Shown here in pieces: positions 4,892-32,614 of a stretch of 38,545 nt of DNA (the stretch's first letter is position 1; each line of letters opens with the position of its first letter). Where the stretch lies: the NCBI RefSeq assembly GCF_006345805.1, contig NW_021827526.1, forward strand, positions 1 to 38,545. The letters run 5' to 3'. The position numbers and the translations under genes were made by a program. The notes beneath the pieces are model-generated. The model ran no database searches. It saw nothing but the letters and a program-made list of their open reading frames with translations, and was not told the DNA's origin. This DNA comes from Octopus sinensis (Eukaryota).

Positions 4892-6174
4892 TAAAAGATA
4901 GGCTATTCTCAAAGAACTAATCCAACAGCATAACAAATAAGAGACACAATTCTCTCAGACAACTCCCGCAACGCTACGGTAAAAATTCCCTTAAAAACGT
5001 GAAAGCAGTTTTGATCATAAATATATACCATAAATATATACAAACGCGTTTATTCATTATTTACATGAATTGAAAAACACAAACATAAACAGAAATAAAT
5101 ACATACAAACATCAATAGCCAAATACACACGTCTATGTTTTTTTCTAGCAAATTACACATCTGCTCCTGCGTAAAAATCTTTAATTGGTGTTTGTATTTG
5201 TCTTTATAGCCAACCATTCATCCTCCAAAATATACACACACATAAGGATATACACACATACACATACACACACATATGCGTATACATCAATGTGTAATAT
5301 TCTCCTTTTTCTGTCTGTGTGTTTGTCATTATGTTTTCTACACTCCACCCAAGAAATTTAACGATTTAACCTGATGCCAGCAGCCATTACAATTTTTACA
5401 AAATAACTCTAATCGTGCTTCTCCATAACTAATAAACCAAGTAAAACAACTGGTTGCCCGGGGTTTCTTTTATTTTTTTCTTCCCTTTTTTGTTTCCTAT
5501 GCTTGCAGTTGTCGTTGTTGTTAACGTAGTCGCTGCTGTTGTTTTTAATGGCGGGGGTGTTCGGTGGTGCGGTGGTGCGGTGGTACGGTGAGGGTTATTC
5601 TGAAGAAATGGTGTCATATTCCGAAGTTATGAAAGAGTGGTGTAGAAAGGTTTTGTAGTGAATATTTGATCTAAGAAAGCATTTCCTTAGAAAATGCAAC
5701 ATTTCCGTTCGAGAAAACGGATGGTTGATGTCTTTATTTTATTTTATTATATTTCATTTTGCTAATGATGGTGATGGCAGCGGAGTAGAGAGAGGAGGAG
5801 GAGGGGGAGAAGAAGAAGTAGAAGAAGTATATGAATGAAAATGAAGGAGGTGGAGGAGGTAATGTAATGAATGAGGTGCGGGGGCGGTTCTTTGTGGCGA
5901 ATGTGTCTGGCTTACGTAAAATGTCTTTTTTGTTTCAGGTGAGATATCGTCTGATCGCTTCATTCGTCTTCTCTAAGACATTCCGTTCGTGGTGACGAGC
6001 GAAAAGAGAGAGAAAGAAAGGGTGAAAAGGAAGAAAGAAAGAGTTGGAAGGAGAGAGAGGGAGAAAGAGGCACAAATCTGTCAGCGAAGCAGACGACCCA
6101 GATGATGACATAAATTGCATGTTTCTTGAATCTTTCAATCGATTTAATCATCATTTCCTCATTGAATATTCCTT

Positions 6175-6842
6175 AAGGCGGTGAGCTGGCAGAAACGTTA
6201 GCACGCCGGGCGAAATGCTTAGCAGTATTTCTTTTGCCGCTACGTTCTGAGTTCAAATTCCACCGAGGCCGACATTGTTTTTCATCCTTTCGGGATCGAT
6301 TAAATAGGTACCAGTTACGCACTGAGGTCGATATAATCGACATAATACATTTGTCTGCCCTTATTTGTCCCCTCTGTGTTTAGTCCCTTATGGGTAGTAA
6401 AGAAATAGGTATTTATAAGGAGGCGAGCTGGCAGAAACGTTAGCACGCCGGGCGAAATGCTTAGCGGCATTTCATCTGCCGCTACGTTCTGCAAATTCCG
6501 CCGAGGTCGACTTTGCCTTTCATCCTTTCGGGGTCGATAAATTAAGTACCAATTACGCACTGGGCTCGATGTAATCGACTTAATATCTTTGTCTGTCCTT
6601 GTTTGTCCCCTCTATGTTTAGCCCCTTTTGGGCAATAAAGAAATAAGAAACGTTAGCACGCTGGGCGAAATGCTTAGCGGTATTTCGCCTATTTTTACGT
6701 CCTGAGTTCAAATTCCGCCGAGGTCGACTTTGCCTTTCATCCTTCCGGTGTCGATAAATTAAGTACCAGTTGCGTACTGGGAACGATCTAATCGACTGGC
6801 CCCCTCCCCAAAAATTTCGGGCCTTGTGCCTAGAGTAGAAAA
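6175..6842 (+). mobile_element. Family C SINE trimer flanked by one TSD
   Basis: Three units (6175, 6421, ~6648); perfect 11 bp TSD GAATATTCCTT at 6164-6174 and 6843-6853. Confidence 0.9.
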
Positions 6843-10049: not shown

Positions 10050-10285
10050 TGTGTGTGGTATATAGTGTGTTTGTTTACAAAATCTTTGTTTTGTTTAATC
10101 TAACGTCATTAGACTACAGTTTATAACGCTTATGCTGCAGAATTTAAAGAAATGTAAATACATCTTGTTATTTTGTTCATAGATCGCTGTCTACTTTTGA
10201 GAGGTCAATCACCCTCACCCTTCTTCTAACCGATAGAACATCAATGTAATTGCTATATAAATCAGCCACAAGCAAGCACATTACT

Positions 10286-10444
10286 GCGTCCCTAAAGTCC
10301 ATCCCCTCCTCACCGTGGTGGGGACGCTGGCAACGGGTAGTGTCAGAGCTATGCCGTCGGGAACTTCGGTTCCTGGTAGGGCCACCCAAGGCGGATTGGT
10401 CTGACACCGAGTGGTATTAGGGCCACAACCCGGCAGACGGGGCT
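10286..10444 (+). ncRNA. HDV-like self-cleaving ribozyme fold
   Basis: P1 GCGUCCC/GGGACGC; L3 UCACCGU; P1.1 CA/UG; GCAAC junction; P4 base CGGGU/ACCCG; J4/2 G-C10434-AGA. P2 and P3 are imperfect in this copy. Confidence 0.72.
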
Positions 10445-10683
10445 CTGGTGAAAATCCTCGGAGTTTCTTTTTCGGCAACCGGCAGCTCCTCGGTCGTTCT
10501 GTCCCTGCATCTGCGGACAATCTGCGGCGAACAGGATGTCTCTACATGCGGGATTGTTGGGGATCGCTCGTGAAATTCATATTCCCACGAAACTTCTTCC
10601 ACCGCCATGGTTCGAGATGCCTCGAGGGTGGTGGAAGAAGCCGACTCAACCCTCACAGAGTGAATGTCGCCACAAGTACAATT
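10286..10683 (+). mobile_element. Bipartite non-autonomous RTE-derived retroelement (5' UTR plus 3' end)
   Basis: TSD AAGCAAGCACWTWACT (10270-10285 / 10684-10699, 14/16 identical). RTE 5'UTR-like GAGCTATGCCG...GGTAGGGCCACCCAAGGCGG. The 3' end (VRDASRVVEEADSTLTE*, GTGAATG..CAAGTACAA) aligns with the RTE LINE end at 32540-32614. Confidence 0.85.
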
Positions 10684-11145
10684 AAGCAAGCACTTAACTA
10701 TAGTGATAGAATTAATTTTTATATCATGTATAATCAACAGTAGTATATTCTTCTGCACAAACGGCTGTATTAGTAAAACTCAATATAGTTACAATACAGT
10801 TTGTAGTTAGAATACATCGAGTAAAGCAAACAGTGGTAAACACACATTGTTATTCTCTTCGCACATAGAAAAATAATGCAATTGCCTTGATATGCTTCAT
10901 GGTTCGTTGACCACTCATCAGGAGAGAGACACGCTTTCCTTTACCTACGAAATGCATCTTCAAAGCAATCGCTAGTTTAAACCCAGGTTAAAACTGAGTC
11001 AACATAAGACCAGAGATGTTTCAATACGCTGCTTCATGTTTTCTTCCAGACGATGTGCATCTGAGCCCTCAATTAACAATGTGCCGTTGTTTTTAAATAC
11101 AGTGTTATAAGTTTAAAATACAGTTTTAAATACAGTGTTATAAGT

Positions 11146-11447
11146 TTAAAGCTCAACGAGGCTCCGGCAGGAGGTAGTGGCGACCCCTGTTGTACTCTTT
11201 CGCTTCAACTTTCTCTCACTCTTTCTTCCTGTTTCTTGTCCCCGACTTCCTACGCAACCGCTGAGCCTCGATGCGCAATCATCCATCCGTCGATGCTCTC
11301 GGTGTCGGGGAGGTTGACCTGCTTTCTCTTCTGCGGGTCTTACGAATAGCAAAGGACCACGTTTCGGACTTCTCCCATCTTGCGAGCTCTGGAACGAAGA
11401 CCGTTTGCTCAACAGCAACAGCAACAGCAGCAACAGCAGCAGCAGCA
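11146..11447 (+). mobile_element. 5'-truncated family B SINE with a third, structured tail ending in (CAG/CAA)n
   Basis: AAAGCTCAACGAGGCTCCGGCAGG...CTTTCTCTCACTCTTTCTTCCTG matches the family B middle; the downstream sequence differs from the other copies. Confidence 0.75.
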
Positions 11448-11559
11448 GTTACCAGGGTGTGGCTGAGAATGATCTCGGAGCCAACTCTGAGAGTCAGGTT
11501 GGAACCAGTGTACCCGTCCATCCTTAAGGATGCTGTTACCGAAAACTAAGGCATTATTT

Positions 11560-23506: not shown

Positions 23507-25034
23507 AAGGCGGTGAGCTGGCAGAATTGTTAGCACGCCGGGCGAAATGCTCAGCGGTATTTCGTCTGCCGCTACGTTCTGATTTCAAATTCCGCCGAGG
23601 TTGACTTTGCCTTTCATCCTTTCGGGATCGATTAAATAAGTACCAGTTACGCACTGGAGTCGATGTAATCGACTTAATCCGTTTGTCTGTCCTTGTTTGT
23701 CCTCTCTGTGTGTAGCCCCTTGTGGGTAGTAAAGAAATAGGTATTTCGTCTGCCGCTACGTTCTGAGTTCAAATTCCGCCGAGGAAGACTTTACCTTTCA
23801 TCCTTTCGGGGTCGATTAAATAAGTACCAGTTACGCTCTGGGGTCGATGTAATCGACTTAATCCGTTTGTCTGTCCTTGTTTGTCTTCTCTGTGTTTAGC
23901 CCCTTGTGGGGAGTAAAGAAATAGGTATTTCGTATGCCGCTACGTTCTCAGTTCAAATTCCACCGAGGTCGACTTTGCCTTTCATCCTTTCGGGGTCGAT
24001 TAAATAAGTACCAGTTACGCACTGGGGTCGATGTAATCGGCTTAATCCGTTTGTCTGTCCTTGTTTGTCCCCTCTGTGTTTAGCCCCTTGTGGGCAGTAA
24101 AGAAATAGGTATTTCGTCTGCCGCTACGTTCTGAGTTCAAATTCTGCCGAGGTCGACTTTGCCTTTCATCCTTTCGGGGTCGATTAAATAAGTACCAGTT
24201 ACGCTCTGAAGTCGATGTAATTGACTTAATCCGTTTGTCTGTCCTTGTTTGTCTTCTCTGTGTTTAGCCCCTTGTGGGGAGTAAAGAAATAGGTATTTCG
24301 TATGCCGCTACGTTCTCAGTTCAAATTCCACCGAGGTCGACTTTGCCTTTCATCCTTTCGGGGTCGATTAAATAAGTACCAGTTACGCACTGGGGTCGAT
24401 GTAATCGGCTTAATCCGTTTGTCTGTCCTTGTTTGTCCCCTCTGTGTTTAGCCCCTTGTGGGTAGTAAAGAAATAGGTATTTCGTCTGCCGCTACGTTCT
24501 GAGTTCAAATTCTGCCGAGGTCGACTTTGCCTTTCATCCTTTCGGGGTCGATTAAATAAGTACCAGTTACGCTCTGAAGTCGATGTAATCGACTTAATCC
24601 GTTTGTCTGTCTTGTTTGTCTCTCTGTGTTTAGCCCCCTTGTGGGTAGTAAAGAATAGGTATTTCGTATGCCGCTACGTTCTGAGTTCAAATTCTGCCGA
24701 GGTCGACTTTGCCTTTCATCCTTTCGGGGTCGATTAAATAAGTACCAGTTACGCTCTGAAGTCGATGTAATCGACTTAATCCGTTTGTCTGTCCTTGTTT
24801 GTCCTCTCTGTGTTTAGCCCCTTGTGGGTAGTAAAGAAATAGGTATTTCGTATGCCGCTACGTTCTGAGTTCAAATTCCGCCGAGGTCGACTTTGCCTTT
24901 CATCCTTTCGGGGTCGATTAAATAAGTACCAGTTACGCTCTGAAGTCGATGTAATCGACTTAATCCGTTTGTCTGTCCTTGTTTGTCCACCCTGTGTGTG
25001 TAGCTCCTTGTGGGCAGTAAAAAAAAATAAAAAT
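23507..25034 (+). repeat. Family C SINE-derived tandem array: one head plus 8 x 184 bp units
   Basis: Units start at 23557, 23741, 23925, 24109, 24293, 24477, 24659 and 24843; TSD AAGAATAARGGGTTWT (23491-23506 / 25035-25050). Confidence 0.95.
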
Positions 25035-32140: not shown

Positions 32141-32614
32141 AAGTCGCTTTTGCTTTACTCAACCATGACCTTCTCCTAGCAGTATTCTCTTCGTGGACGA
32201 AGGATGAACCTGTGTGCCGTAAGTTTGGGTGCGATGTACACGTGGAATGTGCAGAATCACCTCCCTCCGACAAGTCATCCTAACGAGACGTCTGCTTTGG
32301 CTGGGTCATGCTCTCCGTCGTCAACCAGGAGAATTCATCTACGAAGCAATTGCCCCATCTCCCCTTCAGGGTTGGCGAAAGCGATGTGGTGGACGACGAA
32401 AAACCTGGCTGATGACAGTCAAGGCTGATCTGGAACCCAACCTAGGCCCCCATGTCAACGGTGTTCGCCGCTGGAATAAGGAGTAGTTGGAGATCACGCG
32501 GTCGTTAGCCTCAAATCGCCAAGCTTGGTCTGCGTTTGTGAGAGATGTAGCATTGATGATGAATGAAGCCAGCTCAACCCACTCCGGGTGAATGCTGTCT
32601 CAAGACAAGTCAAG
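32141..32614 (+). mobile_element. 5'-truncated RTE-clade LINE (3' end of the RT ORF, pseudogenised)
   Basis: RRLLWLGHALRR...GWRKRCGGRRKTWLMTVKADLE..GVRRWNKE*LEITRSLASNRQAWSAFVRD..SSTHSG* (internal TAG at 32484, end at 32591); CAAG-repeat tail. Confidence 0.9.

What the first reader, a model, noticed from the sequence alone, without database searches (positions are those of the whole stretch)
10286..10444. HDV-like ribozyme starting exactly at the 5' end of a small non-autonomous retroelement
Seen: P1 GCGUCCC (10286-92) pairs perfectly with GGGACGC (10321-27). Loop L3 is UCACCGU, with U at position 1 and G at position 6 as in HDV U20/G25. P1.1 is CA/UG. The next bases, GCAAC, are the same as genomic HDV G40-C44. 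C10334-U10338 pairs with A10428-G10432 and is followed by G, C10434, AGA (the C75-equivalent CNRA junction). P4 is enlarged: an 8 bp stem GUGUCAGA/UCUGACAC, a cUUCGg hairpin (10359-10374) and a GUGGU/GCCAC hairpin. The left TSD ends at 10285, so the element begins at the predicted cleavage G. Weak points: P3 has a U-U mismatch and P2 is only CCCC/GGGG, so this copy may be decayed. Established: HDV-like ribozymes process the 5' ends of R2/RTE-type retrotransposons. Inference: a ribozyme-capped, promoter-independent SINE-like family in a cephalopod.
Basis: partly seen in the sequence, partly recalled or inferred. Interest (0 to 1): 0.85.

Follow-up and report, generated by a model that had tools for sequence, protein, structure and literature searches.

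The report
Short jumping element with self-cutting head
This is one copy of a 400-base jumping element made of the two ends of a longer retrotransposon, and its first 160 bases are predicted to fold into a hepatitis-delta-type self-cutting RNA that likely sets where each copy begins; the arrangement is known from other organisms, but this predicted fold has odd features shared by four related lineages.

Summary
Confirmed. Window 10286-10683 is one of at least 94 copies of an internally deleted RTE-type LINE. Its first 316 nt are 95% and its last 82 nt 91% identical to the two ends of a full-length 3.4-kb endonuclease/RT element in the same genome (L233). Twelve of 30 copies sampled by their junction start exactly at G10286 and 25 of 30 start within 13 nt. 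Three related RTE lineages keep the fold with compensatory changes, and full-length copies of two of them mostly start at their own first P1 base. The P3 U-U and the 4-bp P2 are not decay: all four lineages share them. Cleavage and promoter independence are untested; a strict descriptor and Rfam's cut-off are not met. Ribozyme-headed bipartite LINE derivatives are known (R2 SIDEs, NARTc, RTE derivatives), and the scan noted a similar element in another genome. Unusual here: the non-canonical core, and a 99-nt P4 insert better conserved than the protein-coding DNA.

The parts
10270..10285 (+). left target-site duplication (16 nt, 14 of 16 identical to the right copy)
   Evidence: family D3
10286..10293 (+). 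P1 5' strand (8 nt); G10286 is the first base of the element and the predicted +1 after cleavage
10294..10302 (+). J1/2 (9 nt), nearly the same in all four lineages; may extend P2 by pairing with 10443-48 (inferred)
10303..10306 (+). P2 5' strand (4 bp); two pairs change on both sides in lineage E
10307..10319 (+). P3 (U-U plus 2 C-G pairs) and L3 10310-16 with the U20/G25 equivalents and the P1.1 5' bases
10320..10329 (+). P1 3' strand (10320-27) and P1.1 3' strand (10328-29)
10334..10432 (+). enlarged P4 domain (99 nt, 35 predicted pairs, UUCG hairpin), 91-94% identical among lineages A, B, C
10433..10448 (+). J4/2 with the predicted catalytic C10434 (C-N-R-A pattern), one spare C, P2 3' strand 10439-42 and a conserved 6-nt tail
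10449..10601 (+). rest of the parent RTE 5' UTR, ending at the A of the first downstream ATG of the parent
10593..10640 (+). 14-bp hairpin spanning the deletion junction (10601/10602)
   Evidence: pair I1
10602..10663 (+). last ~20 codons and stop codon of the parent RTE ORF
10664..10683 (+). very short 3' UTR and degenerate CAAGTA/AAGT repeat tail
10684..10699 (+). right target-site duplication

Best explanation
The element is the 5' UTR of an RTE-type LINE joined directly to that LINE's last 80 bases; its head is predicted to fold as an HDV-like ribozyme that likely cuts the RNA just before G10286, and the parent's endonuclease/reverse transcriptase would then copy the trimmed RNA into new sites. 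Shown: origin by internal deletion, copy number, tail, duplication, the pile-up of 5' ends at the first P1 base, and pair-preserving changes between lineages. Inferred: (1) a copy is transcribed by read-through from flanking DNA or from an internal Pol II promoter; (2) P1 forms during transcription and C10434 catalyses cleavage, leaving a 5'-OH; (3) RTE protein binds the 3' end in trans and primes reverse transcription at a nick; (4) reverse transcription runs to the cut end, so copies begin at or a few bases after +1.
For: Parent: L233 is a 3.4-kb element with the same head, 95% identity over 1-316 and 91% over the last 82 nt, and an 11-nt duplication. It matches one 1035-aa EN+RT protein over residues 41-1035; Pfam finds EN and RT in the sister element L163. 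Family: 94 exact junction matches, control 0. 5' ends: of the first 30 of 94 copies in genome order, 12 start at +1, 18 at +1 to +4 and 25 within 13 nt, and by eye none shares upstream sequence. The best-supported loose ends in three public DNA-like runs lie at 10285/10286. Structure tracks the end: lineage B starts at its first P1 base in 17 of 28 copies and lineage E in 13 of 25, although these begin with C and differ in sequence (both sets were picked by likeness to the head). Covariation: A to B changes 3 of 7 P1 pairs on both sides and keeps all 7 paired. All 6 P4 substitutions fall in pairs and break none; P(at least 2 two-sided) = 0.002 under random transitions. In E, P2 has two two-sided changes. 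L3 U1, C2, A3, G6, the P1.1 UG, and the C and A of C-N-R-A are fixed in all four lineages, while the N and R positions vary. Across 36 aligned heads 94.8% of cells pair, against 29-49% for slid partners. P1 forms with probability about 1.0 in transcript prefixes of the A majority up to 150 nt.
Against: No cleavage assay was run. The strict descriptor fails and Rfam's score is far below cut-off. P3 has only 2 Watson-Crick pairs, P2 has 4 (R2 consensus: at least 5) and P1 has 8 (R2: typically 6-7; PMC3774820 section 16). In lineage E, P1 has two internal mismatches, and in C it has 6 bp plus an unpaired A. In a pseudoknot-free model a strand-swapped fold beats the P1+P3+P4 half-structure at full length (-69.4 against -61.5 kcal/mol; P1 probability 0.40 for the majority, 0.14 for this copy), and P1 is mostly not predicted for B, C and E. 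The number of pairs with two-sided change (5) does not exceed shuffles (286 of 500); the covariation rests on a few inherited events. A sharp 5' end would also result from an internal promoter. Only 6 of 27 full-length A copies keep every core pair, so most copies are probably inactive.
Confidence: 0.78

Rival explanations
1. The head is a dual element like Pr77/L1TcRz: an internal Pol II promoter in the conserved J1/2 and P4 sequence starts transcription near +1, and the ribozyme only trims read-through transcripts, or is weak.
For: P4 is dispensable for catalysis in HDV-like ribozymes (own knowledge; absent in silkmoth R2, PMC3774820 passage). Yet it is 91-94% identical among A, B and C, against 73-83% for the downstream UTR and about 60-75% for endonuclease DNA, and its unpaired columns barely change (0 of 29 A/B, 2 of 29 A/C). 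The L1Tc precedent is in the PMC3383444 abstract. This is compatible with the best explanation and differs only on 'promoter-independent'.
Against: No promoter test was possible. B, C and E start with C, unlike the usual purine start of Pol II (own knowledge). No clear extra G at -1 (4 of 27 A, 6 of 17 B, 4 of 13 E). High P4 identity could also come from exchange of 5' modules between lineages.
Confidence: 0.3
2. The fold is a catalytically dead relic of an ancestral ribozyme; the stable P1 helix merely stops reverse transcriptase or marks the transcription start.
For: Non-canonical P3, P2 and P1; competing fold; HDV-like folds with P1 mismatches or a 3-bp P2 were inactive or weak in R2 and SIDER tests (PMC3774820 section 12; PMC4035085 passage).
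Against: The catalytic C, the L3 U/G, P1.1 and the C-N-R-A purine pattern are kept in four lineages whose proteins range from about 70-75% to about 30% identity to a common reference. An RT stop would fall at the 3' side of a helix, not at its 5' first base (inference). A ribozyme with a P3 mismatch from the jewel wasp did cleave (PMC3774820 sections 12, 16).
Confidence: 0.15
3. It is a classical Pol III SINE with a small-RNA head, and the ribozyme likeness is chance.
For: Its size and copy number are SINE-like.
Against: The whole element is collinear with the two ends of a LINE; ARAGORN finds no tRNA in the window; the motif is rare in shuffles.
Confidence: 0.02

Closest known systems
Bipartite non-autonomous RTE LINEs (RTESINE1/2, WALLSI3, MAR4_MD, Bov-A; Kojima 2018, PMC5786205, passages and section 23 read)
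   Same: Only the 5' and 3' ends of an RTE-type LINE, made by internal deletion; keeps the LINE's true 5' end; the paper links this class to 5' self-cleaving ribozymes.
   Different: Here the parent, the junction and the ribozyme fold with covariation are all traced in one genome; this family is not named in the passages read.
R2 SIDEs of Drosophila willistoni (Eickbush and Eickbush 2012, PMC3414825, abstract and section 5 read)
   Same: Short internally deleted element with a 5' HDV-like ribozyme and the parent's 3' end; the 5' junction matches the parent's.
   Different: R2 SIDEs are site-specific in 28S rDNA, end in poly(A) and were shown to cleave (89% and 54%); this family is dispersed, ends in CAAGTA/AAGT repeats, comes from an APE-type LINE and is untested.
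L1Tc/NARTc Pr77-L1TcRz and SIDERs of trypanosomatids (PMC3383444 abstract; PMC4035085 passages)
   Same: A ribozyme cutting before +1 is shared by a LINE and its non-autonomous derivative; short-P2 variants occur.
   Different: Ingi clade, compact 77-nt head with proven promoter activity; here a 160-nt head with a large P4, promoter not tested.
HDV-like ribozymes of RTE elements (Ruminski et al. 2011; paper not held; known through the citation in PMC5786205 and from recall)
   Same: Same LINE clade and same position at the 5' end.
   Different: Could not compare the structures; the U-U in P3, the CA/UG P1.1 and P1 of 6, 7 or 8 bp may or may not be among their variants.
SR3 of Schistosoma mansoni, RTE clade (PMC1291365, passages and section 8 read)
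   Same: Parent has the same build: about 3.2-3.4 kb, one EN+RT ORF, short 3' UTR, TAAG-type tetramer tail, 10-12 bp duplications.
   Different: No sequence comparison with SR3 was made; the 3' UTR here is only about 10-20 nt.

Membership tests
HDV-like ribozyme | Nested double-pseudoknot order P1, P2, P3/L3, P1.1, P4 | tested here: met
   kept in four lineages
HDV-like ribozyme | Catalytic C in a C-N-R-A J4/2, and U/G of the L3 reverse wobble | tested here: met
   C10434 differs in 1 of 48 A copies; pattern fixed in A, B, C, E
HDV-like ribozyme | Canonical helix sizes (P1 6-7 bp, P3 3 bp, P2 at least 5 bp) | tested here: not met
   P1 8 bp, P3 2 bp plus U-U, P2 4 bp; strict descriptor gives no hit. 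PMC3774820 section 16 reports an R2 ribozyme with a P3 mismatch and P2 mismatches in about a third of elements, so this is filed as a non-canonical variant
HDV-like ribozyme | Match to an Rfam HDV-like model at gathering score | tested here: not met
   0 hits; best 16 bits against 44; no ribozyme hit at E up to 10 in four full-length relatives
HDV-like ribozyme | Self-cleavage 5' of the first P1 base, dependent on the catalytic C | not testable with these tools
   only indirect: element ends coincide with the first P1 base
Bipartite non-autonomous LINE (SIDE type) | 5' end and 3' end of one autonomous LINE joined, coding region lost | tested here: met
Bipartite non-autonomous LINE (SIDE type) | Spread as a family with one junction, tail and target-site duplications | tested here: met
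   94 junction matches; a flanking repeat was called by the script in 19 of 30 sampled copies, a few of them doubtful
RTE clade (parent) | Single ORF of about 1000 aa with AP endonuclease then RT; about 3.3 kb; very short 3' UTR with 3-5 nt repeats | tested here: met
   criteria from PMC1291365 section 8. All genomic copies translated carry stops or frameshifts
RTE clade (parent) | Groups with reference RTE elements in an RT phylogeny | not tested
   no reference RT set at hand; clade assignment rests on architecture
Pol III SINE | Head derived from tRNA, 7SL or 5S RNA | tested here: not met

The most novel reading that the evidence does not exclude
These RTE elements carry an active HDV-like ribozyme with a distinct core (2-bp P3 capped by a conserved U-U, P1 of 6 to 8 bp, 4-bp P2) that standard searches miss, and its 99-nt P4 insert is a second functional module (promoter or RTE-protein binding site), more conserved than the enzyme gene. 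The protein's hold on the complete 5' UTR would explain why deletions and inversions keep breaking at the UTR/ORF boundary and keep spawning new ribozyme-headed non-autonomous families.
Probability: 0.25. Interest if true: 0.7.

Novelty: new variant of a known kind. Interest (0 to 1): 0.45.

Why it matters
If it cleaves, it widens the tolerated HDV-like core (P3 of two pairs, P1 up to 8 bp) and shows that descriptor and Rfam searches undercount RTE ribozymes. It also bears on a question Kojima 2018 leaves open (PMC5786205 section 23): why ribozyme-bearing clades such as RTE, Ingi and R2 are the ones that give rise to bipartite non-autonomous elements. Here parent, about 20 separate deletion junctions and four head variants sit in one genome and can be tested side by side. 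The element type itself is not new.

Tried and rejected
1. Pfam endonuclease search of the genome for the parent returned three groups of other LINEs with no match to the element.
2. An open frame running through the ribozyme and UTR: A/B differences over positions 164-316 were 9, 7 and 11 at codon positions 1, 2 and 3, and A has an in-frame stop in P4. Rejected.
3. A long-range duplex between the 5' UTR end and the 3' end as the cause of the deletion hot spot: in 5 full-length elements, 359-1086 of about 1000-1100 other windows paired as well, and 46-291 of 300 shuffles did as well. Rejected.
4. An untemplated cap-derived G at -1: not clear.
5. An exact pattern for a third head seen in public contigs found nothing; lineage C was found later through the protein search.
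6. Expression: no RNA holder was listed. One run guessed to be RNA held fragments as contigs, which shows neither strand, ends nor level.
7. No empty-site joint across the element appeared among the joints listed.
8. The sigma-70 scan is irrelevant for a eukaryote and found nothing.
9. Literature: no held paper contains octopus + ribozyme + HDV. Cephalopod + self-cleaving ribozyme + retrotransposon gave 2 papers, neither on this by title or abstract (one of them, PMC5786205, was read in part). 'Ribozyme' occurs 0 times in the main text of PMC9115989 and PMC13282606. Repbase/Dfam and supplements were not searched, and Ruminski 2011 was not held, so the family or fold may already be deposited there.

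Full report
Observation. The P4 sub-helices appear in the minimum-energy fold, whose energy is not unusual against shuffles (z -1.15), as expected for a pseudoknot. Rfam has no hit at gathering score in the window; in 10200-10800 its single weak hit is an HDV-like model starting at 10286 (E 2.2). A relaxed descriptor that I loosened to admit this element hits only 10286 in the window; it gave 7 hits in 1313 window shuffles and hit 5 of 126,701 element shuffles, and the strict form gives no hit. The flanking duplication is 16 nt at 88%.

The family. A DNA search of the own genome scored 40 of 1578 candidates; the 39 other than the window itself are 93-96% identical over nearly the full 395 nt. 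They end in CAAGTA/AAGT repeats. A pattern across the internal junction matches 94 places exactly, control 0, which is a lower bound. The first 30 of these in genome order were not chosen for their 5' ends: 12 start at G10286, 18 within 4 nt, 25 within 13 nt, and 5 are cut further (26, 58, 107, 125, 243; the one at 125 has the head inverted upstream). In contigs of three public DNA-like runs the best-supported loose ends are at 10285 and 10286; 396 weaker rows were not shown. The window copy differs from the majority at 12 of 395 places, only one in the head. Among 54 distinct copies from 60 loci (duplicates and copies lacking most of the head dropped), U10307 differs in 1 of 51 and U10319 in 0 of 52, and 6 of 27 full-length copies keep every core pair; the window copy keeps them all. 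So the weak-looking P3 and P2 are family features, not decay.

The parent. The last 80 nt read as the end of a LINE ORF. A pattern for the open-frame version hit 310 places, and the 30 fetched were mostly 5'-truncated LINE ends of two lineages, 11 of them 89-95% identical to the element's tail. Searching with the endonuclease of a full-length sister element gave L233: 3.4 kb, the same first base, 95% identity over 1-316 and 91% over the last 82 nt, an 11-nt duplication, and collinear with a single 1035-aa EN+RT protein. The junction joins the end of the 5' UTR (10601) to the last 20 codons (10602) with no added bases. The architecture fits the RTE criteria in PMC1291365 section 8; no phylogeny was run. 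No copy with a fully open ORF was seen among those translated.

Natural variation. Four head lineages were recovered: A (this one), B, C and E (protein about 30% identical to the reference). All keep the order P1, P2, P3/L3, P1.1, P4; the U-U above two C-G pairs; L3 U1, C2, A3, G6; the UG of P1.1; and C-N-R-A with N and R varying. P1 is 8 bp in A, 7 bp in B with three two-sided changes, 6 bp in C, and 8 nt with two mismatches in E. P2 is 4 bp in all, with two two-sided changes in E. In P4, whose fold was taken from A alone, all 6 A/B substitutions are in pairs (2 two-sided, 2 wobble, 0 broken of 35); A/C gives 2 two-sided, 1 wobble, 1 broken and 1 deleted pair. Random placement gives at least two two-sided changes with P 0.002 but breaks no pair with P 0.12. 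On 36 aligned heads (18 A, 16 B, 2 C; the outer four P1 pairs left out because the aligner misregisters them) 94.8% of cells pair against 29-49% for slid partners, but the number of covarying pairs is no higher than in shuffles, so the signal rests on few inherited events. B and E copies start at their own first P1 base in 17 of 28 and 13 of 25 cases (sets chosen by head similarity); C does so in only 4 of 18, since 7 belong to a sub-lineage that lost the P1 5' strand and extends upstream.

Mechanism. Most likely the head cuts itself free of upstream RNA at G10286, the parent's protein binds the 3' end and copies the RNA by target-primed reverse transcription, and copies therefore start at or just after +1. 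Origin, ends and structure conservation are shown; transcription source, cleavage and trans-mobilisation are inferred from R2 SIDE and L1Tc precedents (PMC3414825 section 5; PMC3383444 abstract). Against: non-canonical helix sizes, and a strand-swapped nested fold that is lower in energy than either pseudoknot-free half of the HDV fold at full length, although P1 dominates in A prefixes up to 150 nt. The program cannot score the full pseudoknot, so this is inconclusive.

What is unusual. The 99-nt P4 insert is 94%, 92% and 91% identical for A/B, A/C and B/C, while the following UTR is 83%, 76% and 73% and the first 360 nt of endonuclease DNA 75%, 60% and 61% (one copy per lineage for UTR and EN). 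This points to a second role for P4, or to exchange of 5' modules. Deletion junctions recur at the UTR/ORF boundary; a base-pairing explanation failed its test and a coding explanation for the UTR failed too.

Comparison and verdict. Bipartite RTE derivatives and ribozymes at RTE 5' ends are both known (PMC5786205 section 23, citing Ruminski 2011, which was not held), and active ribozymes on non-autonomous derivatives are shown for R2 SIDEs and described for NARTc. I found no held paper on such a ribozyme in octopus or cephalopods; repeat databases and supplements were not seen. The element meets all tested criteria of a bipartite non-autonomous LINE; the head works like an HDV-like ribozyme by topology and active-site pattern but misses the canonical helix sizes and is untested for activity. 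Verdict: real feature, known kind, non-canonical variant; interest 0.45.

Noticed in passing
window 32249-32612: 5'-truncated copy of the lineage C RTE (3' end of ORF and tail); 39 other genomic matches at 93-94%; a full-length relative is L285.
   Followed up: yes
L103-L162: Of 53 heads, 36 are joined directly to the 3' end and 11 have an inverted 3' end upstream, 3 of them more than 290 nt away. In 30 of 48 rows scored, the 5' part ends between -1 and +52 of the first ATG, with about 22 distinct junctions. L103-L132 were picked by a motif at that place, so only the upper limit is informative for them.
   Followed up: partly
L235-L244, L248, L251, L254, L257: A C sub-lineage has lost the P1 and P2 5' strands and carries up to about 190 nt of other shared sequence upstream; these copies extend past the usual start, as expected if the ribozyme is broken.
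   Followed up: partly
L006, L007, L010, L209, L210: Tandem duplications of the first 20-50 nt of the head at the 5' junction; in L209 several repeats each start at +1.
   Followed up: partly
window 10633: G here perfects the junction hairpin; G in 11 of 30 short copies but 0 of 11 A-type LINE 3' ends, so it seems to have arisen in the short element.
   Followed up: partly
window 10285 and other copies: T precedes +1 in 14 of 27 full-length A copies; unexplained.
   Followed up: no
window 23556-25025 and 6174-6645: Eight tandem copies of a 184-nt unit (94% matches) and two copies of a related 238-nt unit; they look like arrays of a tRNA-type SINE (by eye, not tested).
   Followed up: no
window 11140-11460: GC-rich stretch ending in a CAG repeat, likely another repeat element; the relaxed ribozyme scan did not hit it.
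   Followed up: no
L031-L060: Three groups of young LINEs with long open endonuclease frames (up to about 1150 aa), unrelated to this element.
   Followed up: no
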